From Trichinella spiralis (lineage: Eukaryota), in the NCBI RefSeq assembly GCF_000181795.1, contig NW_003526943.1, forward strand, positions 1,607,647 to 1,671,646: a stretch of DNA of 64,000 nucleotides, written 5' to 3'. Under the pieces are notes generated by a model. It saw only the letters and a program-made list of their open reading frames with translations, was not told the DNA's origin and did no database searches. Positions within the stretch are counted from its first letter, which is position 1; every line of letters starts with the position of its first letter. Positions 3,424-44,039 of the stretch are shown one piece after another. The position numbers and the translations under genes were made by a program.

Positions 3424-5709
3424 ATGACTTGCTCGGAAAGTTTTCTCAGAAACTGCACACATCGCAGCAGTGTCCGTGGAAAATGGAAATTATCACTTTT
3501 TGTTGTATTCATGCTTGTAAAAGATACTATCAGTCAAACGACATGCAGACTTGAAAGTGGAAATACTGTTGACTGGTAAATGAAAAACTTATTCTATTTT
3601 TCTACTCATTTCTATTAAGTTTGCATTATTTTTTATGTACGTCCTTTACAAACCTCCGGGCACACCTGCATTAGAAGAAATAATTCCTTATCAGCAGCAA
3701 CAGCTACAGCCGCAACAGCCACAACATGTACAAGGATGGAGGAGATCACAAGGCGATGTTACTACAAATAACAATGCCATGTATAGAACATTAAGTGGAC
3801 TGTTTATGAACACCATCAGTGAACAAATTAATGGCTTTGCTTATAACAATGATCCACCAATGATGGTTGGCATACGTTCGAAATCTACTGGAAAAGGTGA
3901 ACAACAAGCAGTTTTGTAGTTTGAAAAGTACATATTCTGTTGTAGGAGTTGTTTTGTTCAACAATCAAGAAGAAAACAATGAAGCATTTTGGTTTCTGCA
4001 TACTGTCCCTGGATTTGTTCAAACTTTGGTACAATATGTATGGCCTAATGAACAAACTTCATATGGGCATCTGTTTGTTTGTTTAAATTTTGTCGAATCG
4101 CATTTGAGGCAAATTGGTGCGATTTCTTTTTCCTTTCTTATACAGCAATTATTAAAAATTAATTAATAATTTCATTTTTCTAGCGGAATCATTGACTTAT
4201 CAAGAAGTGATTGTTTATTGGAGCAGCATTTTGCCATCATTTAAAGAAACTATTGTTGAATTGAACAACTTTCTCAATCCAAAATATGAAATTCGAGAAA
4301 CGCCGTTCGCTTATGATGTAGAATTTCAAACAACTTCATTAACCAGTTCATCACGCATCAAGGTTTACAGCAAAACTTCAAGATCACATCTTGGCAAGAT
4401 CAATTTTATTTAAAGTGAAACAATTTTTCTTTAATATAATAAACGTCCAAACTTTACAGACATGTTTGCAAAATACCTAACCAGACGACTTGAAGCAAAT
4501 ATCAGAATATGGACACAGGTGGGTCCCAAAAAGCATTCCACATGCGGAGGCCATGTTGGTTTTGTCCAAGTTATCAAATCGCCAATTACAATAGCGACAG
4601 AAGTTGTCTCTTATAGGGATGACAAAGCAAAGTGGCTAGTTTGTGAAAATAAACAAATGTGGTGCTTTACAACAAGCAATTACTCGGTAATTTTAAACAG
4701 ATACTTTTCTTATTTAAAATCATACACATTTCTTTAAATGACTTTTTATTTAAAATTGAAATTAATTAAATATGAAGAAAAAAACATCTTAAAATGTTTT
4801 TTATTTTAACTACATTATAAAAATGTGTAACTTCAAAAGATAATTATTTTTAAAAATAGTCATTTTTCATATTAAAAATTGTTTTTAATTTTTCATATTT
4901 GACAATTTTATGTTCTGATTCATTATTACGTTGGTATTATTGCTTGTTGGGTAATGTATCATGAAATAAAATGTTTAAAGAATTTTATTCGAACTTATAC
5001 AATATACATTTCTAAAAGATTTTTGAACAAAATGGACTTTTAGGAAGAAGATCTGAAATATTCTGGCGGATCAATATGCATGACAAATCCAACCGTTTAT
5101 TCCACATTTTCAGCGTCAGCAGGTGAAACAACGGAATGCCCTTATAAGTTAGAAAATATCATGATGGGATTCGGAATGTTTGATGCATATCAAAATCAGT
5201 TAGCTATGGGTGGAGGCTATCCATTCATCACTTCTCCCATTGAAGGCGGAGTAGGAGCTCCTGGTGGAGGGTATGAATATCCGTACGGCCAGCAGCAGCA
5301 GCAACAACAAGTTTATGGTCCACAGCAATCACCATATTATCAACAAATGCAACAGCAGCCGTATGGTCAATACGGCCAACAAACCCCTTACGGTCAATAT
5401 GGCCAACAAACTCCTTACGGTCAATATGGCCAACAAACCCCTTATGGTCAATACGGTCAACAAACCTCTTATGGTCAATACGGTCAACAAACCCCGTACG
5501 GTCAGTCATCAGCAGGCTACGGCCAATATCAACCAATGCCTTATGGTCCATCTAATGTATATGAAAGTACAGGATACCCTTATGGACGGAATCGAGAAAC
5601 TACAAATTCAAAAAACAAAAATTTTCCCCAAAATCAACCGAATTCCCCTCAAAACGGATATTTCGCTGCCTTTCAAGATTCGCAATTACAGTCTCAAAGG
5701 ACTAGGTAA
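3424..5709 (+). CDS. Deoxyribonuclease II-like (plancitoxin/p43-type) secreted protein with Q/Y/G/P-rich C-terminal tail; first intron acceptor non-canonical
   Basis: Hydrophobic leader then CRLESGNTVDW/YVLYKPPG, AYNNDPP, STGKG/VVLF, FWFLHTVPGF, YGHLFVCLNF, DDKAKWLVC, WCFTTSNYS and SGGSICMTNPTVYSTF follow the DNase II motif order. Both HxK histidines are replaced. Confidence 0.85.
5359..5505 (+). repeat. Coding 27-bp tandem repeat, (P/S)YGQYGQQT x5 plus a partial unit
   Basis: Directly visible; the units differ mainly at synonymous positions (tat/tac, ggt/ggc, acc/act). Confidence 0.95.
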
Positions 5710-10499: not shown

Positions 10500-13190
10500 T
10501 TAAATTTTCTGAATTTCAAATAGTTGTATATGTGAATCGTACCAAATCGGCGGATCTGTATTGCGCAAATAGATCACACCCCAAAGATAAATTCTGAACC
10601 ATTCGTTTGTGCCACTGTTGCTCTGGTATTTACGGATCAGTATCGGATGAGGAACCGGTAACAAACCGACCAACGTACCGTGCTGGAGAAATTTCAACAC
10701 TTCACCTTCGTCGGTCAACATACGGTCAATGCAAATTTTCTCCACTTGCGGAACCAACACTTGCAACAAGCGCATCACCGTTTGCATAGGGAGTTTCTGC
10801 TTCCAATTATCCACCCATTTCTGCGTAGGGGTCCAGGATTCGCTGGTTCCACTATCACTTTTCGAACTGCCGGCTTTGTTCGACGTTGGCAACACCAAAC
10901 TGGCCACTCCTTCCTGCAAACCGGAGGCGCCTCTCTCAGTCATCGCATTCACATTCGGTGTCTTTGCCAATGAAGCGCTCAAACCGTGGTGACTCTGCTT
11001 TGCTTCAGCTTCTCCTTCTGCTGCTGCTGCTGTTTCTTCTTGTGTTTGGGACAACTTCGTCCCCGCCTCTTGCTGCCCTCCTTGATCTGGACACTGCTCG
11101 TCGTTGCTACTTTCAGTTGGCGTCTTCATGTCAGGCAATGTATTTTTGCTGCCAGTTTGTCGTTTGCGTGATTTCAACGCCACCGAAATCGACGAATCAT
11201 CAGAAGCCAAATTGGCCAATTGATAAAATACTTGACGTTTTCGGATTATTGTATAGACCAAATTATAATTGCCATCAAATTGATATTGGATAATATTGTT
11301 GAATATTTCCAAAAGGAAAAAGACCATGTGGTGATTGTTCGGTGCAGCGTATAGATACCAAGGCGTGCTGAACACTTCCAACAGATGAAGCAACTTGCTA
11401 GCAGCTACCATCGACATCGATTTCAAGTACGGTGACACGTTGACAATGATCGTCAACAGACATTCGAACAAGCTTTGCAATTTTCCATTACCGGAAGTGA
11501 TCAATTTGTGAAAAACAATAATCAACAAATCTGCGTGGGTTCCGGTAAACAATGGAATATCCATAGCCACTCGTGCTGTATAGGATTTGTTCAAACGAAC
11601 GCCGAAATTTCTCTCACCACTCAGCAACAGTATCACAAAAACGCCCATGTGCACTAAGCCAGCTCGTGCTAAAATTGAAGCCAAATAAATAAATAAATAT
11701 ATATATATATATATTATTCCATTTACTTACTTTGGTCATTACGTGAATCATTCAAATAATACAAAATTGGAACCAATATGTCAAGAACAGCGCTACTTTT
11801 CAAAACATGAAAAAGAAATTTCTAAAAACAAATAATAATAATATAATGTTGCTCATATTTATGAAACAAATAGTTGGAAAGGATGCAATTTAAATTTAAA
11901 AAAGGGGAAAAACAAAAATTACCCTGTTGTAATCACAACATTTCCAAAACAGTACCAACAGTTCTTGATGAAAAGCAACTTTCTTACACGAATTTGGCAA
12001 ATAAGTTTGGGTGAGTGGATTATTCAACAATCGTGAAAAGCCTCTCAATATAAATTCGAAATCCTAAAAGTGGAAATTACAAATTATTACACTGGTCCAA
12101 TTATGAGAACAATTCTACATCCATCCAATCAAAATCAGTCACCTCATCTCGATGGACTCTCGACAAATAACTGATGAAAAGATTTTCATTGCTAAAAATT
12201 GCCTGAAATAAAATTAGAAATTGCAAAAATTATTATTTCACAATAAACGTTGCACATTCATTCATTCATTCATACTTCATCTTCTTCGTGTGTGACAGTG
12301 GAATCGCCTCCATTTTGATCCAAAGTTGCAACCAAAACTTGAAGAGCCACCTCCACCAACGGACCTCGACAATCGGAAAACAGCAGATGATTGTACGGTA
12401 GCCCGTAGCCGATTGGATCGTAAGAAAAGACAACGTTCATCAAGCTTGTGAATAATGGCAAAACATGCCTGTTTTCGGCGGATGTGAAATTCGTTAGCCA
12501 AAAGTTTTCATATCCTGACTGAATAGCCGCATTCGACTGATACATGACGTCGGATAAACAAGTCAACAGCAGACGAAGCAGCTCAGTCCGGTTGCAATCG
12601 TACTGAGGATTGTGCGGGGGTGAAATGGCAAAACCGATCCCAGCTTCCCATATGTATTCACAGCTGTCGATGGATTTCAAATTTTCCACCGTTTCCGGAC
12701 CCTTCTTCGACGAGCTCACGGTGAAATCTGGACAGAAGAGCAAATCACACAGTGAATTGAGCAGCAACTTTCCAAGTGGAGGCGTGTCCCCATCTGAACC
12801 TCCACTGGAACCTGGCGTTGAAACATTAGACCAAAAATATCCACGCCAGTCTGGATCTTCAAATATGAACGGCAAGAGACGAGTCAATATGCGGACGCAG
12901 TTCAAAATTTCTTGCTGGTCATTCACCGTATGCGAGCTAGTCTGACAAGCTTGAGACAACCGCTCCACCGCCTTGTAGCACAGCGTGGCCAAATTGTTCG
13001 GCGCATGCTCTCTCAGTTGTCGAATCTCTTCGGACTGAATCAGCGAAAAAATATCTTGCACTTGTTTGATGCTGTTCGGCTGCCAAAATTGTTCCCAAAA
13101 TACATCATCCGACGGTTCGACAGACTTCTTTGTCGACGTCAATTCCACCACCGCTTTGCGGAAATTCAGCTTACTGTCGCTGCCGCCCAT
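10500..13190 (-). CDS. hid-1: HID-1 dense-core vesicle/Golgi protein (multi-exon span)
   Basis: MGGSDSKLNFRKAV N-terminus (myristoylation-type), DSCEYIWEAG, LPLFTSL, LLLSGERNFGVRLNK, GTLVGLLPVPHPILIRKYQ, DPPIWYD. Confidence 0.95.
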
Positions 13191-18261: not shown

Positions 18262-18737
18262 TGTAAGAACCAAGAGTTCGCCTTTTATGCTCAGGTTCGA
18301 CTGCCTGCCAAACTCATTTGACATGCGGGAAGAGTAGTGGACTGTTCTGTTTTATTGTCCAACCGTTGATATGGTTACTCAAGAGGGCAATCGCGTTGGT
18401 TAAATACAAGTAGTTTCAAGCAAACTCAGACAAATACACGCTCGTTTATTCGGTACAAGTACAGGCTAGAGATGCGCACAACTTCGACAGCAACGAACAT
18501 TCTGGAAGTTGAACTTTACAGTTCCCAAACTTAACTTCCACTTTTAGAGAAGCTCCTAGCGTGTGTAATGATTCGTCTTACTGCTCCTGGTTTCAGGAAA
18601 ACGTTCCTGTATTTTTTCATACGGTTCATCCAGAGGAAAGATACCTTTCCTCATATTTCAACCAGGCAGAGGATCACGCGCACAGCCGTATCCCGCCAAT
18701 GTCGTTATGAACAATTTTCCTACATCAGGTTCCTTTT
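18262..18737 (-). mobile_element. Degenerate LTR-like/interspersed repeat remnant
   Basis: Left end TGTAAGAACC also heads the partial inverted copy at 19856. Minus-strand AATAAA at 18445-18450. The right end is degenerate (ggttcc) and no TSD was found. Confidence 0.35.
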
Positions 18738-19855
18738 TATTGGTGTGATTCTCAATTGGAATCGATATTGTTTTTATTTATTGTTAAAATATTTATTATT
18801 GACAATTTCTTTAATAAAATTTGTGTTATTTTTTAATTATCTAACATATTTTTTCTGCCATTTATTACAAATTAAATAGAATAATGACAATTAATGGTAA
18901 AATTACTGCATTTAATTATTTTTTGTAAATACTGCTGCATCAGTATTATTTATATTGCTTCTCAAGAAAGTCTACCTCATATCATTTATTTTATAATTAT
19001 TCAGCATTTATGGTTACTTTTGTTTTAATTTATTTATTTATGCTTATATTTTAAGCAAACTTAAATGAAAAGCTGTAGGCTGTAGGTAGTGATGCCTCTT
19101 GTAAAAACAAGAATTCGAGTATTATTAATGTTAAAATCATTTTTTAAAAATACCATTAAATAACAAAAAACAAGTAAAGAGAAAATGGCGCACATTGTCG
19201 AACATGTTCTTCAAAACCGTTGGCCAGATCAACCAAATCAGCTTCCTTTCGAATCAACCGCTGCATATAAAATATGCACCGACTGCATGCGGCAAATATC
19301 CTTTTGAAATGTTACTAACGGATTTCAATACTGCAGATTTTTTATTTCAGAAGTTTGAAATTCAGTGGACTGACTATATAGAAAAATAAGTTTTACCTTT
19401 GATGTGTATTTAATAATTTTTAAAAGTATAAAAGTTTTAAAGTTCTTTTACCTATGAGATGTTATATATCGCTAGCATTCCTGATTAGGTATTATTAGCT
19501 GAAATCCTGAGCTATTTATACCAAAAAGAATGTATTTACGTCAGAACAAGTTACAAGTAAATCCGCTTCAGCACAGTCAATTCAAAGTATAAAAGTGATG
19601 CAAATCTTTCGTCAGTTTAACTAAAAGAAAATCTATGGAGCAGTAATCGACACAAAATACGCTAAACCTATTATTATCAACGATTTCTTTTTCTATAAAT
19701 GTGTTATTTGTTTTACTTTGATGCACATTGTTTCATGCGGAAAATGGCTGTCGCTTAAAAATACTGGTATTGAGAATAAAGTGTTAAATTAAAATGTATA
19801 TCTGAGTTGGTACAACAATACCGAGTAATGGAAATGTTGAGGTCTAGTGACAAGA

Positions 19856-19928
19856 TGTAAGAACCTGATGTAAGAAAATTATTCATAACAACAATGGCGG
19901 GATAGGGCTGTGCGCGTGACCTTCTGCC
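19856..19928 (+). repeat. Partial inverted copy of 18664-18732
   Basis: aacctgatgtaagaaaattattcataacaacaatggcgggatagggctgtgcgcgtgaccttctgcct matches the reverse complement of 18664-18731 with 7 mismatches in 68 nt. Confidence 0.9.
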
Positions 19929-20346
19929 TACGTGAAATGTTGAAAATAGTATTACCGGGTAATGTAGTTGACATAGCTCTACTATGTGCTCTCATTGGGG
20001 TACTTAAATTCGTGAATTTCCCGGGACTGATTTGCCTCAAATTTTATTACTTGACGTTGCAATTATTAAAAGGGAACTGTGAAATTAAATTTCCAGGGCA
20101 TTCTTTACATGAAAGCCATTTTCAACCGAATTCAACGTAAATACTTTACGAATCTGCGACTAGACCACTTGCATTTAGCATTTGAAGTAAAGAAACAAAA
20201 CATCAATAACTTTTCATTTATTTATTAATTAAACTGTTGCTTTGTATTTACGCATCGGTTATTGATAATTAAATGTCAAAACCTGCATGGAACAGAAACA
20301 AAAATTTAAAATATTTTATTTAAATAATAATTGCATAAAGGGCAAA

Positions 20347-20840: not shown

Positions 20841-21617
20841 TTCATTAAAATTTTCAAATTGTTCTTAAAATAAAAATATAAACAGCTATCAATTTCGTAA
20901 AGAAACAAAATAACAGAAAAAGGCTACAAAAAGAATACATTTAAAAAATCATATATACGAACAGAACATTATAATTATAACCGCGAATGCAAAATCATTC
21001 TACAAACTAAACTACAACTTAAATATTACCAACCCAAACACCATCTTTAAAACTAAAGAATGCAAAAATAAAATTCTTGGTGCGTATACTGTAACTGTTA
21101 TTCAAGTTTCAATTTTTCAGTTTAAAATTAATTCATTTAATTGTTAAATAATTAGTTTATGCAACAATTAAAGCAATTAAATAATTAATAAAACGTATTA
21201 TGCATGTAAAGAAAATTTTATGTTCATATAAAAAGCTAATGTATGAATCATATTATTGGCTATTAACGCTGTCCTGAATACAAAATTGAGTGCCTTACTT
21301 TATTAATTTCACAAAAATAATTTATTAATTTAGTGTGCTTTGAAAAATGATTTCAAAGTCACAATATCACGTAAAAAGTATATTAACCAGAAAACATAAA
21401 TATTGTAAATCAGAATTACAGTATACTCATTTAAAGTTAGATGTGATAAATTAAATAGTAATGTAATCTTCATTTTAATGAAAATTATTTACACCATTAT
21501 ATATAAATATATACAATGCATTTCGGATGATACAAAATTATGTTCCTTGATTATCGTTACCTACAGGAATTGTATTTTTTACCAGCGACAAATAATTTAG
21601 CAATAATAAACGTCGTG

Positions 21618-22760
21618 ATGTACGCTAATGCAAATATTACATCTGAAATAAAATCCGAAAGAACCGATAAATTGTTACAATCTGAATCTTCTGGACGTTT
21701 TACATTTAAAGAAAAAATACTTGAAGTGATTAAAAGATATCCAAATGGTTGCCCAGACAGTGTTTTGAGATCGGAAATTTCAGCGAAGGAAGTGAAAGAC
21801 ATGGCTAATTCTATAAATGAATTGTTAGCTGAACATCGAATCGATCTTCTGAAAAGTGGAAACGAAATTTATTATAAATTCATTAGCGAAAGTGCTGTTG
21901 TGGACTCAATGATACCTTTGGATCCGTTGGAAAAGTTACTTTACCAGTTAATTGCGGACGCTAAAAATATGGGAATTTGGATTGGAGATCTGAAGACCAA
22001 ATCAAACATTCCTCACAGGCGTTTGATGAAAGTAATACGTTCTATGGAAAATCGGAAAATGATCAAAACATACCATTCTATGGCCCATTCAAGGAAAAAA
22101 GTTTGCGTGCTCTATGATTTACAGCCTCATCCTACGATAGTCGGTGGTTCCTTTTTCACTGATGAAATGTTTGATACCGAATTTTTGGCTTCAATATCTG
22201 AATACTGCCTGAAATTTTTGAAATCCAAAGCTGACAGCGCCAGCCACTTTCCAACGTTTATCAATCGAATGAATAAACGTAATGCTACTGTAGAAGAGGT
22301 TAGGAAATTTCATTTTTATCTTTCGCATTGTTGACAGTACTTTTTACTGGAGTATAAATATCATACGTAGCATCTTAATCCTGGAATTAATGTTAGAAAA
22401 TTTAAATTTATAATTATAAAAGTTCATCCAATTATTATTTTATCGTACTTGTTAAATTATTTATTAACGTAGAACGTTTTTTAGATTTGGCAGTTTCTTT
22501 GCAATTCAAAAATATTAAATGTGAACCTTAGCCAGATAGAAGTGGAACGTGTTTTGGAAAATCTGGTGCATGATTCACAAATTGAAAAGAAATTTGAAAA
22601 TGCTAGGCCAGTATATTTTTTAGCAAAGCCATTGGAAAGGAATCAGGGTATTTTGCATTCTCCATGTTTAAGCTGTGAAATAGCGCTAGACTGTGTTAAA
22701 GGTGGAACAATATCGCCTAACACTTGCCAGTATTTTTCAGATTGGCTTTTAGATGAATGA
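21618..22760 (+). CDS. POLR3F: RNA polymerase III subunit RPC6/C34 (2 exons; start inferred)
   Basis: Winged-helix segments (YQLIADAKNMGIWIGDLK, LYDLQPHPTIVGGSFFTD) and the C-terminal Fe-S cysteine motif PCLSCEIALDC...ISPNTCQYFSDWL. ATG 21618 follows an aatttag acceptor at 21600. Confidence 0.93.
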
Positions 22761-24584: not shown

Positions 24585-24790
24585 ATCACACTTAAAATAC
24601 TTCAGCTGTGATTGTTAAATATTCTTTTTTAACAACACATTTTGTATTGATTTAAACTTCAGTGTTATAAATAAAACCAAATTATCTCATAGCAAGATAA
24701 AATGGCTGAAAGAAATCATTTTCTTATTATAATACAGTAATTAGTAAAATTCAAGCTTATTGAAATTGTACTTTTGAATTTCAATGTTAT

Positions 24791-25062
24791 TGTTAAAGCG
24801 AAATCACAATTTCGCCCTCGAGCTTAGTGGACTGTATAATTGGTTTTCGTCGCAATAACAGTCAATCAAACCAAACGGAGTGTTGACACAGTTTATTAAG
24901 ACAGCTAACTAACAAGCCAAGACAATACAACAGGAAAAGACGCAATATCACACAACACACACAGCCACACACACACGCACTTGACGTCACTACTACGCCT
25001 ACTGTAGTCCTTCCTGATTCGCAGGTTCCCACTACCGAAACCTGGCTGTTACGTCCGTAACA
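24791..25062 (-). repeat. 3' LTR
   Basis: Identical by eye to 28698-28969. Minus-strand AATAAA at 24892-24897; CRE palindrome TGACGTCA at 24982-24989. Confidence 0.97.
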
Positions 25063-28000
25063 TCCTCCCCCGGCGATGGGGAATTTCCTTCCCCATCGAT
25101 TATGCGGGCTGGCTCCAGCACTACCAGTTTAGCGACTGGCCCGGTGATTTCTGAGGTGGACGTGCGGATCCGGGCGGCTCTGCTCACTCCATCTTGGCCT
25201 GGGAATAGCTGGATCACCACTCCCAGAGGGCAGCGTGTTCGTGGACGACTGTCCTCCAGTATCAACACCAAGTCGTTGATTTTTGGGCCAACACCGTTAT
25301 TTCTCCACTTGTTGCGAGGTAGCAGCGAAGCGATGTAAGTGCTCCTCCAACGGCGCCACCATCTTGCCATCAACCGCTGATGGCAGCACCAATCCATCTC
25401 CCGATGTGGGTGTCTTCGTGTACATAGGCCGGTCGTTGCGTGACGGCAACCCGGCCTTCTGTGCTTCGGCTGCCCGCAGCCTCGATCCTCGCGCCTCATG
25501 CGCTCCGTTGGGATCCAACCGCGTTGCTCGATCGCGTTTAACGATCGACGTACCTCTGTGGGCAGCGCTCCCCAGTGCATGGGGCAGATTCGGGTCTCTG
25601 TCCACACGTGCCTCCCTGGAGGCACTGCCGGGTGACCCGTGGACCCCGGCGCGTCCGGATTCTGATCTCTTACCAGCGGTTTCCGAGTTACTTCAGTCCG
25701 GTGCGGTTCCCCTTCAGTCCGCTCAGCGTCCCCGTGTTTGCCCTTTGCCGACGGGTGCCTGCCAGCGAAGCGCGGACGGTGCACGCTGGTTTGCCACACC
25801 CCCGCTGCATTCCCTTTGATCGTTGAATGCCTGGGGTCAGCGGCGTCGTCCATCGTCGACGCCAATTCTGACTGTCTTGATGGGCTGTGTCCCACTTGCG
25901 ACAACCGTGTGGTCCGTCCTGAGCCCTCAAGACCGCGCCGCCGAGCTTGTAGTGGCTCGGCTGGCCATCCGGGTCCCTGCAGCCAGGGTTTCCCGGTTAT
26001 CCACTTCTTCAAGCCTCGCTCCCCAGCGAGCTGTCGACTGGTCCGTTGGACGACGTTATGGAGGCCTCGTTGCCCTGAGTGTCGCGGGAGACTGACCTGA
26101 CTCTTCTCTGCACTAGACGTCGTGGTCTCCTCGCGCTTCTCCATAGCCTCCTTGTTCCCTTCTGGAACGTCTTCTTCCGGGATGATCTCCACTGCCTCGA
26201 TCTCCCCTGTTTTCCGCAACGCGACATCGGCGGATTTCCCAGAATTCGTCAGGAAGGTTTCCACTTCCGCAGTCCACCTGGGGCTTGCTCTCCCACGAAC
26301 TACCCAGACGAATAGCGCCTCCAACGCTACTGGACCGCCGGTCGCCCTGCTCCTCATACGACCGGTGACGAAGCCAAAGTAGTAGTCGACCTCTATCCGC
26401 ACGTCGACTCCTATGGGCGGCCATTGCCGCCGCTTCATCTTGGTGACAGCCGCCTCCTGCGACTTGTCCGATATGTCCATCTCCCCCTGTCGGACCTTCT
26501 CGCGGATCCGCTGGATGGCAAACGCTCCCATGCGGCGACTTGCCACCGGCTGGCCCAAACTGCCAACGGCCCCCGACCGGACGTCAACTTTCCATAGTCC
26601 ACGCTCCCGATCCACGAAGCCTCCGACCTTCCCAACACGGAGATTTCCATACGATCTGTCGAGCTCCAACCTCTTCGACGCCACGGCTCCATCTGCGGCG
26701 GGGTCTCCGGCCGGCGCTTTTCTTGACGACCCAACCTCCCCGAACTTCCGCATGGGGCTGTCATCCGAATCTTCGCCTTTCGACAAGACTTTGGCCTCGA
26801 TGGATCGTCTTCGGGCGGCTCTCCCGCACGTGATCCACCCAAGGCGGGTCTCCACGGCCACTGACCCACCTGTCGCTCTTCGAATGCGACCGGTCACGAG
26901 CTCGTAATAGTAGTCGATGCCGACCAATACATCGACCATGAGCGGCGTCCCTTGCCGCTGTCCCCCCTTGGGTACGGTCCTTGCCGGTGTCCCGTCCGAG
27001 GACTCCGCCGGCCCTGATTTACCGTAGACCCGAGGAATTGCAAGCGCCTTCACCATGGTGCTTGTGTCCGGTCGGCCTGAGCTTCCAACCGCTCCAAGCC
27101 GAAATTCCACTCTACGCCATCGGCGCTCCGGCCCTACACGACCTCCGAGAGTTGTGAGGCGACAACGTTCATGGGGCCCAGTGAGTCCGAGAGCTTTCGC
27201 CACGTCCTTCCGGATGAAGGAGATTGCGGCCCCGGTGTCCAGCAGGCAATTCACCACCACGTGGTTTCCGTTTGGCCCATAAGCGCAAGCACGGGCGGTC
27301 TGGAGTCCTTTCCCGGAGGTGCTTCGCACGACCAAAAGACCCTGGTGGGTGCGGTCAGACTCTGAAGACCCTGTCGATTCCCTCGTCGAGGGCGGATGAA
27401 GGAGCCGATGATGCGCCTGGCGACATCCGTCCACTCCACAGGGTCGACCTCCTCGGCATCCTCTCGCCATATGCCCGGTCTCCAGACATCGAAAGCAGAC
27501 TTCCTTGGTTCGCGCCATGTCTCTCCTCCTGGACAGGTCCGCCTTCAGGAACTTCTCACACTCTGCCGCCTTATGCTCCCCACCACAGAACGGGCTGCCC
27601 TTGGCGGCGACCACTGCCAACGCCGCCGCAGTTGATCTGATGCGATCCCCATATCTCTGTTCAGGACGCGACGGTTGCGACGAGGGCGTCCGTTGTTCCG
27701 ACTTCACTGCAGGTGTTTTCGCTTCTTCTCCATTCAACTTGGCGAGCAGATTCGCCTGCCATTGAGCGAATTCCAAAAATTTCTGCAGGTTGTCCTCTTC
27801 TTCGTCTGCATCCGGTCCGATGTTGGTGTCCCAGGCCCTTATCAATGCCGGGGGAAATTTGTCCAGCAACATCGGCATCAGGACCTCACTTGCGGGGAGA
27901 TGGCCGGCGAATGGATCTCTATCCAAAGCAGTGAGACAACGCAGATGTTTAGTCACTTCGTCCACCATGGACTGGATGCCCCGCTCCGACATCTCGCGGC

Positions 28001-28646
28001 ACGCTGGCTCCCTCCATAGGGCAGCCAAATGCTCGCGTATCACTTGTCTCGGTCGACCGAAACGCTTCTTTAAGATGTCGACGGCCTGGGGGTAGTTCTC
28101 TGGAGTGAGCGGGATGCCTTCAATGGCGTTCCTCGCCGTCCCTTCGGTGTTGGACAACAAGTAGGTGAACTTGGTGGCGTTGTCCAAGTCATTCCGTTTG
28201 TGTACATTGGCCTCGAACTGGGCCCAAAAGGAAGGGAATTCCAACACCTTCCCCGTAAACTTCGGGAGAGTCACCTCCGGCAACCTCCCATTGCTGGACC
28301 GGACCGCCGGCATGCCCGCGCTAACATTGCCGCTACCTATGGGGCCTTCTCTGCGCGCCTCAACCATCCTTGCGCGTGCACGAGCCTTTCCCTCACGGTA
28401 GGTCTGGCGACATAACGCCCAGGCATCTATCGCGGCTTGCCGCTCTTCACCTTCCAGGTCCAGCTCCACTTCGGTTTGGAGCGCGTCTGCGGCCCGGAAC
28501 GACTCCTCCATTAACGAGACCTGCTCTTCCACCTCAAAGACATCGGCGGATCTGATGCACAACTCATCCAGTTCTGCCAACAATCGGTTCAGCCGATCCT
28601 TGAGGGCCACGAGTTTCTTGCTCCGTGATTTCGCAGAGGACGCCAT
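25032..28646 (-). CDS. Gag-protease-remnant-integrase C-terminal fusion polyprotein (~1,204 aa)
   Basis: LPEVTLPKFTG...FWAQFEANVH (BEL Gag/DUF1759-like); knuckles SPFCGGEHKAAEC, CFRCLETGHMARGC and CGVDGCRQAHHRLLH; protease LLDTGA; C-terminal WWRRWRSTYIASL...DLVLI...PLGVVIQLFPGQDGVSR (BEL integrase tail). No YxDD RT motif and no DDE core. Confidence 0.9.
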   Translation of the reverse strand: MASSAKSRSKKLVALKDRLNRLLAELDELCIRSADVFEVEEQVSLMEESFRAADALQTEVELDLEGEERQAAIDAWALCRQTYREGKARARARMVEARREGPIGSGNVSAGMPAVRSSNGRLPEVTLPKFTGKVLEFPSFWAQFEANVHKRNDLDNATKFTYLLSNTEGTARNAIEGIPLTPENYPQAVDILKKRFGRPRQVIREHLAALWREPACREMSERGIQSMVDEVTKHLRCLTALDRDPFAGHLPASEVLMPMLLDKFPPALIRAWDTNIGPDADEEEDNLQKFLEFAQWQANLLAKLNGEEAKTPAVKSEQRTPSSQPSRPEQRYGDRIRSTAAALAVVAAKGSPFCGGEHKAAECEKFLKADLSRRRDMARTKEVCFRCLETGHMARGCRGGRPCGVDGCRQAHHRLLHPPSTRESTGSSESDRTHQGLLVVRSTSGKGLQTARACAYGPNGNHVVVNCLLDTGAAISFIRKDVAKALGLTGPHERCRLTTLGGRVGPERRWRRVEFRLGAVGSSGRPDTSTMVKALAIPRVYGKSGPAESSDGTPARTVPKGGQRQGTPLMVDVLVGIDYYYELVTGRIRRATGGSVAVETRLGWITCGRAARRRSIEAKVLSKGEDSDDSPMRKFGEVGSSRKAPAGDPAADGAVASKRLELDRSYGNLRVGKVGGFVDRERGLWKVDVRSGAVGSLGQPVASRRMGAFAIQRIREKVRQGEMDISDKSQEAAVTKMKRRQWPPIGVDVRIEVDYYFGFVTGRMRSRATGGPVALEALFVWVVRGRASPRWTAEVETFLTNSGKSADVALRKTGEIEAVEIIPEEDVPEGNKEAMEKREETTTSSAEKSQVSLPRHSGQRGLHNVVQRTSRQLAGERGLKKWITGKPWLQGPGWPAEPLQARRRGLEGSGRTTRLSQVGHSPSRQSELASTMDDAADPRHSTIKGNAAGVWQTSVHRPRFAGRHPSAKGKHGDAERTEGEPHRTEVTRKPLVRDQNPDAPGSTGHPAVPPGRHVWTETRICPMHWGALPTEVRRSLNAIEQRGWIPTERMRREDRGCGQPKHRRPGCRHATTGLCTRRHPHREMDWCCHQRLMARWWRRWRSTYIASLLPRNKWRNNGVGPKINDLVLILEDSRPRTRCPLGVVIQLFPGQDGVSRAARIRTSTSEITGPVAKLVVLEPARIIDGEGNSPSPGEDVTDVTARFR
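25063..25071 (-). other. Polypurine tract GGGGGAGGA abutting the 3' LTR
   Basis: Reverse complement of tcctccccc, directly adjacent to the LTR TGT terminus on the minus strand. Confidence 0.9.
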
Positions 28647-28656
28647 GGTATCCACT

Positions 28657-28695
28657 ATCCATAGGTCGCTGGTTCGACTCCGGCTCGGAGGACCA
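28657..28695 (-). other. Extended primer-binding site complementary to tRNA-Tyr nt 38-76
   Basis: Plus strand ATCCAT-AGGTC-GCTGG-TTCGACT-CCGGC-TCGGAGG-A-CCA parses as anticodon 3' stem, variable loop, T arm, acceptor 3' strand, discriminator and CCA. It lies 2 nt from the 5' LTR. Confidence 0.9.
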
Positions 28696-28697
28696 AA

Positions 28698-28969
28698 TGT
28701 TAAAGCGAAATCACAATTTCGCCCTCGAGCTTAGTGGACTGTATAATTGGTTTTCGTCGCAATAACAGTCAATCAAACCAAACGGAGTGTTGACACAGTT
28801 TATTAAGACAGCTAACTAACAAGCCAAGACAATACAACAGGAAAAGACGCAATATCACACAACACACACAGCCACACACACACGCACTTGACGTCACTAC
28901 TACGCCTACTGTAGTCCTTCCTGATTCGCAGGTTCCCACTACCGAAACCTGGCTGTTACGTCCGTAACA
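28698..28969 (-). repeat. 5' LTR
   Basis: Identical copy of 24791-25062, followed by the GTTAT TSD. Confidence 0.97.
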
Positions 28970-29235
28970 GTTATTACTGAAATTACAATGAAATTTAAAA
29001 AATGCTTTACTTTTTTAGTATAAACGTAAAATATAAATGCAATCCTCAATGCCCTATTTTAAATGCTTTTATGTGGATAAAGCCAATTTTTACATAGTAA
29101 ATCTTAATTTTTGTTTACTGTAATTAAGATACCGTGATTGCAAAATCTGATTTTAATCCCCTTTTCTGCATTTCTATTTTGCTTAAACTGTAATGTGTGT
29201 GCATTTATTTTTTATATTTAGAATTTTGTAACGCA

Positions 29236-30734
<1,499 letters not shown>

Positions 30735-43122: not shown

Positions 43123-43314
43123 ATGTCAGACAAGAAGGGGACTCAAGCACCTGCTGAAACCGTTCAGTCTGATAAAAAGCCAAAACCTTGTTGTGCTTGT
43201 CCGGAAACAAGAAAAGCACGTGACGAGTGTATTGTTGAAAAAGGTCCTGATAGTTGCAAGGAATTAATTGAAGCTCATCGACGTTGCATGAAGCAGTTTG
43301 GCTTTGAAATCTGA
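43123..43314 (+). CDS. COX17: Cytochrome c oxidase copper chaperone (63 aa, intronless)
   Basis: [47 protein letters not shown] copper site and twin CX9C. Confidence 0.97.
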
Positions 43315-43328
43315 TTTGTACGCCGAAT

Positions 43329-44039
43329 ATGACTTCTGATAATTCGACGAAAGATTGCGAATTAAGCATTGCTAGAAGCGAATTAACACATTTGGACATA
43401 TCCGTCAAACAGTTGATTCGATATATTCGAGGTTTCGAAGGCTCCAATTCGGACTTGGAACGTCTGTGCCTTCATTGCCGAGCTGACATATTTGCCATGG
43501 AACAACTTCTTGAAGATTATAAGCAAGTGTTGATGTTGAACAAAATCAGTGATTCTGACGCGGAAGAATTCAGATTTGTGACAACTTATAGAATTGAACT
43601 GGAAAACAATATTCAAAGTTTAAGGGAAGCAATCCTTGTTGCTTCGCAGAATGCAGATAATTACGAACGAGAACTCCTATTTTCGCGATATAATGATGAT
43701 GCATGTACTGAAATTTTAAGAAAGCGAAGGATTAATGAGAAGAAGCGAAATGTGAGTGAGGCGAGACAGTTGCAATCTAGTTTAACATCACTGTTGGACA
43801 AAATGAATGATACTGTTCAACAAAGCGAATTAACGTTGAACAAATTAACTGCGTCTTCGACTGCACTCCGCGATGCTACATATGAAATGCACGGAATGTC
43901 ATCATTGATTCACACATCTGGAAAGCTTTTGAAAAAATATAAACGAAGACAATTTAGTGATCGTTTTATAATTTTCCTATGCTTCGGTATTTTTCTGCTT
44001 AGTGCAGCCTACATTGTGAAAATTAGACTTTGGAAATAA
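43329..44039 (+). CDS. SEC20: ER SNARE Sec20/BNIP1 (236 aa, intronless)
   Basis: Helical N-terminus, ERELLF..LRKRR, SNARE-like segment QQSELTLNKLTASSTALRDATYEM...SGKLLKKYKRRQFSDR, and a C-terminal TM FIIFLCFGIFLLSAAYIVKIRL. Confidence 0.88.
   Translation: MTSDNSTKDCELSIARSELTHLDISVKQLIRYIRGFEGSNSDLERLCLHCRADIFAMEQLLEDYKQVLMLNKISDSDAEEFRFVTTYRIELENNIQSLREAILVASQNADNYERELLFSRYNDDACTEILRKRRINEKKRNVSEARQLQSSLTSLLDKMNDTVQQSELTLNKLTASSTALRDATYEMHGMSSLIHTSGKLLKKYKRRQFSDRFIIFLCFGIFLLSAAYIVKIRLWK

What the first reader, a model, noticed from the sequence alone, without database searches (positions are those of the whole stretch)
28646..28697. Primer-binding site is the whole 3' half of tRNA-Tyr (nt 38-76)
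Seen: 39 nt parse exactly as tRNA positions 38-76 including CCA, then similarity stops. Established: a PBS is normally 18 nt or less because copying of the primer halts at m1A58; position 37/38 is both the canonical tRNA-Tyr intron junction and next to a modified base 37. Inference: either the RT reads through or meets an unmodified A58 and stops at base 37, or priming uses a 3' tRNA half/exon. The Gag ATG (28646) lies only 10 nt beyond the tract and an out-of-frame ATG (28662) lies within it, so primer annealing could also gate translation versus packaging.
Basis: partly seen in the sequence, partly recalled or inferred. Interest (0 to 1): 0.78.

Follow-up and report, generated by a model that had tools for sequence, protein, structure and literature searches.

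The report
Retrotransposon primer site spans half tRNA
A young jumping gene of a Trichinella-type worm, like many of its relatives, carries a primer site that matches the whole 3' half of tyrosine tRNA (39 bases instead of the usual 18), likely because its copying enzyme sometimes runs past the usual stop in the tRNA and halts only at the anticodon loop, an overrun that is a dead end in HIV but would be usable here.

Summary
Confirmed. Bases 28657-28695 are tRNA-Tyr nt 38-76 with CCA, 2 nt inside the 5' LTR of a young 4,179-bp non-autonomous BEL/Pao element; all close Gag relatives are from Trichinella. The tract is 34/36 identical to an animal tRNA-Tyr 3' exon, and similarity stops at nt 38.

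It is not confined to this copy. Other elements in the same runs start their match at nt 38, and gene models from four Trichinella taxa read through the same leader. Sister copies carry it split by small insertions near nt 58/59 and 53-55. Of 122 control sites with a Tyr primer site, 97 stop at 18 nt. Four of 93 non-redundant ones carry the distal part. One (L017) has C at nt 58 and is welded onto pol, as expected of a reverse-transcriptase overrun.

Best reading: an ordinary tRNA primes; plus-strand synthesis sometimes reads through m1A58, stops at modified G37, and the copy is built in and kept. Priming by a tRNA half is not needed. The translation gate is unproven, and the host tRNA gene was seen only by its likely 3' end.

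The parts
28698..28969 (-). 5' LTR, 272 bp, TG...CA
   Evidence: 100% identical to the 3' LTR
28696..28697 (-). 2-nt spacer between LTR and primer site
   Evidence: sequence
28678..28695 (-). canonical 18-nt primer-binding site, complement of tRNA-Tyr nt 59-76
28657..28677 (-). 21-nt extension, complement of tRNA-Tyr nt 38-58
   Evidence: 21/21 to L126 over nt 38-58; shared by other elements
28647..28656 (-). 10-nt linker that repeats the last 5 nt of the tract (TGGAT)
   Evidence: sequence; the frame-0 peptide across it is kept in relatives
28564..28662 (-). out-of-frame upstream ORF, 32 codons, starting inside the tract
   Evidence: ATG lost in the split sister form
28638..28668 (-). predicted hairpin pairing the distal tract with the Gag AUG (-10 kcal/mol)
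   Evidence: computed only
25032..28646 (-). single 1,204-aa ORF: DUF1759 Gag, zinc-knuckle-like Cys/His motif, aspartic protease, DUF5641 tail; no RT, RNase H or integrase core
25063..25071 (-). polypurine tract
24791..25062 (-). 3' LTR
24786..24790 (.). target-site duplication GTTAT, left copy
28970..28974 (.). target-site duplication GTTAT, right copy

Best explanation
The 39-nt tract is the tRNA-Tyr primer site of a BEL/Pao retrotransposon plus a 21-nt extension shared across Trichinella relatives, and it likely arose because reverse transcriptase, copying the primer during plus-strand synthesis, sometimes reads through m1A58 and stops at a presumed m1G37, so that the copy of nt 38-58 is built into the element. 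Shown: the tract, its position, its nt-38 boundary and its spread in contiguous and split forms. Inferred: mature full-length tRNA-Tyr primes from its CCA end; once the extension is present, both the 18-nt and the 39-nt strong-stop DNA can pair with the minus strand, so the overrun is harmless and re-writes the tract from the tRNA; the extension probably also gives the primer extra pairing, which would explain why split versions persist. This copy has no RT, so a helper element must do the copying.
For: (1) The boundary is nt 38 in the window and in 3 of the 4 long-tract control loci (L017, L036, L056; L046 starts at 38/39), with no significant similarity in front of it. (2) L017 is 35/36 identical to an animal tRNA-Tyr 3' exon, its one difference is at nt 58, and BEL/Pao pol homology starts within about 7 nt of the tract with gag and most of pol missing: the expected scar of an overrun followed by misplaced transfer. 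(3) In the split sister form the insertions lie at nt 58/59 and within nt 53-55, near the stops described for HIV RT at m1A58, pseudouridine 55 and m5U54; a minor stop at modified base 37 is also described (PMC13191261, passages). (4) Human or bovine cytosolic tRNA-Tyr has m1G37, a pattern the table extends to C. elegans (PMC7200024, Table 1 passage); m1G blocks AMV RT (PMC8062790, passage). (5) Single contigs of 1,960 and 968 nt match from 28657 to 28695/7 with 3 other letters and nothing else in the stretch. (6) Gene models read through the contiguous tract in T8, T9, T. spiralis and (in part) T. murrelli at 80-83% Gag identity, and through split forms down to 59% and 42%. (7) The contiguous label needs 2 changes on the Gag tree in all 200 bootstrap trees, so the form has switched more than once.
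Against: No strong-stop DNA, RT or tRNA modification of this host was observed. The window has the correct A at nt 58, so it bears no misincorporation mark itself. L017 is a single 1,148-nt metagenome contig from another host and could be an assembly chimera. L093, the same family as L046 (55/55 identical over primer site and LTR end), may hold a worn trace of the distal part, so that pair does not prove a new gain. Insertions in a T run cannot be placed exactly. The nt-38 boundary is also the intron junction in 5 of 5 parsed tRNA-Tyr genes and the point where m1G37 would end base pairing, so it does not single out an RT stop. Leaders of relatives were read from predicted proteins, which may be mis-spliced. 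The direction of change on the tree is open.
Confidence: 0.58

Rival explanations
1. The extension is mainly a selected second docking site for the primer's T arm, variable loop and anticodon stem, like the Ty1 boxes. It evolved by ordinary mutation and small indels, and it ends at nt 38 because m1G37 cannot pair. Read-through plays little or no part. This reading and the best one are not fully exclusive.
For: Split and detached forms keep the nt 38-53 box at 42-91% Gag identity. In 63 non-redundant control loci, separate boxes near the primer site match tRNA nt 2-10 (10 loci against 2, 2 and 1 in control windows), nt 17-25 (7 against 2, 1, 0) and nt 45-53 (7 against 1, 0, 0). Ty1 has such boxes (PMC3592414, passages), and in Ty1 and Ty3 the primer site is not re-copied from the tRNA (PMC5371799, passage).
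Against: It does not explain L017 (tract welded to pol, changed base at nt 58). It does not predict pairing across nt 54-58, where m1A58 cannot pair, yet these bases are kept in the contiguous form and between the two insertions of the split form. A near-perfect 21-nt match is hard to reach by stepwise mutation.
Confidence: 0.27
2. The primer is a free 3' tRNA half or the CCA-bearing 3' exon of tRNA-Tyr, and RT runs off its 5' end at nt 38.
For: All 5 parsed animal-type tRNA-Tyr genes have a 13-17-nt intron between nt 37 and 38, so a 3' exon would begin at the boundary.
Against: Priming needs only the CCA end. 97 of 122 Tyr sites stop at 18 nt, and short sites occur in the same runs as long ones. 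Split forms are not what a run-off copy gives. No RNA evidence for such a half was obtained. An unchecked note of this scan (e1-7882086) reports the same nt 38-76 span for tRNA-Pro, which I recall has no intron in animals; this is a lead only.
Confidence: 0.1
3. A one-off insertion of a tRNA fragment or SINE piece next to the LTR, without function.
For: A tRNA-pair insertion at a primer site is described in Culex cqgypsy_1 (PMC3286476, passages).
Against: The tract is continuous with the working primer site, has no duplication around it, is kept across divergent families and recurs in unrelated hosts.
Confidence: 0.05

Closest known systems
BEL/Pao retrotransposons (Belpaoviridae), e.g. Achilles of the olive fly
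   Same: LTRs, DUF1759 Gag, protease, 5-bp TSD, PPT; Achilles has a tRNA-Tyr primer site (PMC4580426, passages).
   Different: The ICTV profile gives an 18-nt site for tRNA-Arg or -Gly (PMC8742986, whole text) and Achilles has 18 nt; this one has 39 nt, and this copy lacks RT, RNase H and the integrase core.
Primer over-extension sequence of lentiviruses and spumaviruses
   Same: A genomic stretch next to the primer site that matches tRNA beyond nt 58 and lets over-extended strong-stop DNA transfer (PMC13191261, passages).
   Different: That sequence serves products ending near nt 55; the review says the product ending at base 37 is not an active template. Here the match runs to nt 38.
Extended or bipartite primer sites of yeast Ty1 (boxes 0, 1, 2.1) and Ty3
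   Same: Pairing with the primer outside the acceptor end, in segments split by loops (PMC3592414; PMC5371799; passages).
   Different: Ty1 has only 10 contiguous nt, Ty3's segments lie about 4,800 nt apart, the primer is initiator tRNA-Met, and their site is reported not to be re-copied from the tRNA.
Half-tRNA priming of copia and Ty5
   Same: A boundary in the anticodon loop.
   Different: Those prime from a 5' fragment cut in the anticodon loop (PMC5371799, passage); this site pairs with the 3' half and begins at the CCA end.

Membership tests
BEL/Pao (Belpaoviridae) | LTRs of 0.2-1.2 kb with target-site duplication | tested here: met
   272-bp identical LTRs, 5-bp TSD
BEL/Pao (Belpaoviridae) | BEL-type Gag and protease | tested here: met
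   DUF1759 E 7e-27, Asp_protease_2 E 6e-7, DUF5641 E 1e-21; homologs carry Peptidase_A17 and RT
BEL/Pao (Belpaoviridae) | Pol with RT, RNase H and integrase | tested here: not met
   Absent from this copy: a non-autonomous derivative; relatives such as P0004 have RT and Peptidase_A17 domains
BEL/Pao (Belpaoviridae) | 18-nt primer site for the 3' end of a host tRNA | tested here: met
   Present at 28678-28695, but continued for 21 more nt
BEL/Pao (Belpaoviridae) | Polypurine tract before the 3' LTR | tested here: met
   9 purines at 25063-25071
Primer over-extension sequence (lenti/spumavirus type) | Complement of tRNA beyond nt 58 directly next to the primer site | tested here: met
Primer over-extension sequence (lenti/spumavirus type) | Over-extended strong-stop DNA is made and transfers productively | not testable with these tools
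   Only indirect scars (L017)
Ty1-type extended primer site | Separate boxes complementary to T and D arms | tested here: inconclusive
   The window's tract is contiguous and no D-arm box is significant; split forms occur in sisters and boxes in other hosts
Ty1-type extended primer site | Pairing shown by probing and needed for priming | not testable with these tools
   no experiment possible
Half-tRNA priming (copia, Ty5) | Site pairs with a 5' tRNA fragment ending in the anticodon loop | tested here: not met
   Site begins at the CCA end and covers the 3' half
Host with unmodified A58 | Loss of TRMT6/TRMT61A or low m1A58 on tRNA-Tyr | not tested
   No host genome was held; short sites in the same runs argue against a general loss

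The most novel reading that the evidence does not exclude
A clade of nematode BEL/Pao elements has moved its working plus-strand stop from m1A58 to base 37: the strong-stop DNA routinely carries 39 nt of tRNA copy and transfers productively, a product reported as a dead end for HIV. The leaders of such elements would then be a fossil record of where host tRNAs are modified, with breaks at nt 58, 54-55 and 37.
Probability: 0.3. Interest if true: 0.72.

Novelty: new variant of a known kind. Interest (0 to 1): 0.55.

Why it matters
The 18-nt length of primer sites is explained by the RT stop at m1A58. A clade that keeps a 39-nt site shows that the limit can be bypassed, and it offers a natural series (short, split, contiguous) for asking whether retrotransposon primer sites are re-copied from the tRNA, which holds for retroviruses but is reported not to for Ty1 and Ty3. 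The ICTV profile calls BEL/Pao replication poorly understood. Junctions such as L017 also suggest one route to internally deleted, non-autonomous elements. The ingredients (extended pairing, RT overrun) are known, so this extends a known mechanism.

Tried and rejected
No whole genome was held, so no genome-wide count of copies or tRNA genes was possible. No RNA holder was listed.

A strict 34-39-nt pattern found 0 hits in viral and metagenome contigs. The looser pattern then found long tracts that the strict one missed through single differences. Of 83 candidate ORFs, 55 were scanned with Pfam: 30 hit DUF1759, 4 hit only other retroelement domains, 4 hit unrelated bacterial-type domains (chance matches of the pattern) and 17 hit nothing. 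All loci were kept in the counts.

The host tRNA gene was not read in full: one contig leaves the tract after nt 73 into a run of five T, but its matched length was among the 48 pieces not shown, and human-like contigs are filtered. Depth rises steeply over the tract in all five runs, but it sums overlapping contigs and is no copy number.

The idea that other families start Gag at the ATG inside the tract is unsupported: 17 of 195 Met-starting relatives begin with Met-Asp, and their DNA was not seen. A remnant of the tRNA 5' half in front of the tract is not significant in the window (139/2000) or L046 (338/2000). Copying of an unspliced precursor is not supported: no match to fetched intron tails, though the host intron is unknown. 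Rfam gave two chance hits only.

Three older papers (Cer elements, two look-ups; Ty1 boxes, one) were not held.

Full report
The element. The finding lies at the 5' end of a 4,179-bp LTR element on the minus strand (24791-28969). Its LTRs are 272 bp and identical, the target-site duplication is GTTAT, and a 9-nt purine tract precedes the 3' LTR. One 1,204-aa ORF has DUF1759, an aspartic protease and DUF5641, but no RT, RNase H or integrase core. Of 27 homologs of its N-terminal part, 25 are named Trichinella proteins and 2 are distant and unnamed. It is a young, non-autonomous BEL/Pao element in a Trichinella-type host. No host genome was held.

The observation. Bases 28657-28695 parse as tRNA nt 38-76 with CCA, 2 nt from the LTR. 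Six animal-type tRNA-Tyr loci were fetched; five were parsed, and their 3' exons are 32-34 of 36 identical to nt 38-73. All five have an intron between nt 37 and 38. The letters in front of the tract match neither the 5' exon nor the intron tails.

The host tRNA. In run X6 one contig leaves the tract after nt 73, without CCA, and reaches a run of five T four letters later. That is what the 3' end of a tRNA gene looks like, but its matched length was not listed. At nt 59 the window has C. Leader peptides of relatives down to about 40% Gag identity imply the same base, while the split variant seen in X2, X6, X7 and X18 has A there. Two isodecoders would explain this; it is not shown.

Spread in Trichinella. 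In five runs laid (X2, X7, X10, X18; X10, X6), 2-4 contigs per run in X2, X6, X7 and X10 begin their match at 28657 and carry other letters in front. Single contigs of 1,960, 968 and 146 nt match only 28657-28695/7, each with 3 other letters. Other contigs match only from 28679, a short site. A common variant has the whole tract with 3 letters added at nt 58/59 and 2 letters added within nt 53-55. Some gene models read through the leader: P0010 (T8) and P0063 (T9) give the window's 13-codon peptide exactly, P0041 (T. spiralis) with one change, and P0007 (T. murrelli) its distal part, all at 80-83% Gag identity. P0003, P0006 and P0050 (87-91%) give the split form. P0049 (59%) and P0087 (42%), both T. 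zimbabwensis, give other split forms. P0013, P0016 and P0066 keep at least the distal box. These readings come from predicted proteins, not DNA. On a tree of 20 Gag segments the window sits with three split forms (100/99), and the contiguous label needs 2 changes in all 200 bootstrap trees. The direction is open.

Control outside Trichinella. Of 55 ORFs scanned, 30 hit DUF1759. Perfect contiguous lengths at 122 sites were 17 (2), 18 (97), 19 (13), 20 (8), 21 (1) and 22 (1), so 18 nt is the rule. Allowing mismatches, 4 of 93 non-redundant loci score 20 or more for nt 38-58, against 0.1 expected. L017, L036 and L056 begin at nt 38 even when the full spliced tRNA is offered; L046 begins at 38/39, with a non-significant hint of more. 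L017 is the most telling: its only difference from the reference is at nt 58, and pol homology begins directly after the tract. It is one short contig. L046 shares its LTR end with L093, but L093 may hold a faint trace of the distal part, so this pair does not prove a new gain. Separate boxes for the tRNA 5' end, D arm and T arm are enriched in about 11-16% of 63 loci.

Mechanism. In HIV the plus strand stops mainly at m1A58, with minor stops at nt 55, 54 and 37; only the first three products transfer, helped by a primer over-extension sequence (PMC13191261, passages; PMC11251516, passages). Animal tRNA-Tyr has G37, listed as m1G37 for human or bovine with the pattern extended to C. elegans (PMC7200024, table passage), and m1G blocks AMV RT (PMC8062790, passage). 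I infer that a helper RT sometimes reads through nt 58 and stops before nt 37. In an element without the extension, the 21 extra bases have no partner and may anneal elsewhere, as in L017. In an element that has it, the long product pairs in register and re-writes the tract, which can fuse a split form. Extra pairing with the primer probably adds a reason to keep it. None of these steps was observed directly. The main rival, a selected Ty1-like docking site, explains the split forms and boxes as well but not L017. A 3'-half primer is possible only because the intron junction shares the boundary.

Translation gate. The distal tract is predicted to pair with the Gag AUG (hairpin of -10 kcal/mol). 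Blocking 39 nt, but not 18 nt, raises the AUG's unpaired probability from 0.1 or less to about 0.4-0.5 in two folded windows; in the longest window it stays mostly paired. The upstream ATG is lost in the split variant. This remains a hypothesis.

Literature. Ten searches (listings only) showed no title or abstract start on a 39-nt primer site in BEL/Pao elements. I read the ICTV profile whole and passages of PMC13524379 (sites generally 8-18 nt), PMC3286476, PMC4580426, PMC5371799, PMC3592414, PMC8599865 and bioRxiv 073510. PMC3118150 and PMC554778 had no passage on primer sites. Older papers on C. elegans Cer elements were not held; I recall unusual long tRNA-like sites there, unverified. Repbase entries and supplements were not seen and may bear on novelty. 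Two unchecked notes of this scan describe similar long sites (e1-7882086, e1-9535092); they are leads, not support.

Verdict. The feature is real, conserved and recurrent. It is a new variant of known extended primer sites, most likely written by RT overrun to base 37. Interest 0.55.

Noticed in passing
L017:1029-1067: A 39-nt tRNA-Tyr copy with C at nt 58 joined directly to BEL/Pao pol just before the integrase; gag and most of pol are missing. Single contig.
   Followed up: yes
L004, L005, L016, L076, L112 and related loci: Tyr-primed elements in these assemblies carry separate boxes matching the tRNA 5' end, D arm and T arm within 100 nt of the primer site, enriched over control windows: a Ty1-like multi-box site.
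   Followed up: partly
L046:1667-1742 and L093: Same LTR family; L046 has a worn 39-nt tract followed by DNA with no BEL/Pao homology, L093 a short site with at most a faint trace.
   Followed up: partly
L036:1342-1380: A 38-nt tract ends 1 nt before the likely Gag ATG in an unrelated host, so closeness of tract and start codon recurs.
   Followed up: partly
window 25032-28646: The non-autonomous element keeps one open 1,204-codon frame, with a diverged second copy of the region after the protease start (aa 670-864, 38% to P0004 aa 435-626) and a DUF5641 tail.
   Followed up: partly
window 28970-30600: The 5' LTR lies head to head 267 bp from the likely start (29236) of a gene whose exons look like an rRNA adenine dimethylase (DIMT1-like; name recalled, not scanned).
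   Followed up: no
L122-L127: Animal-type intron-bearing tRNA-Tyr genes lie in contigs filed under bacterial MAGs, probably eukaryotic contamination.
   Followed up: no
P0062: A T. murrelli gene model joins syntaxin to this family's Gag, most likely an insertion merged by gene prediction.
   Followed up: no
window 18655-19938: Inverted repeat with 78-nt arms, 87% complementary, 1,128 nt apart; possibly a small DNA transposon.
   Followed up: no
window 5323-5511: 27-nt tandem repeat inside an ORF with no Pfam hit.
   Followed up: no
window 10500-13190, 21531-22334, 43308-44039: Host genes with Hid1, RNA_pol_Rpc34 and Sec20 domains.
   Followed up: no
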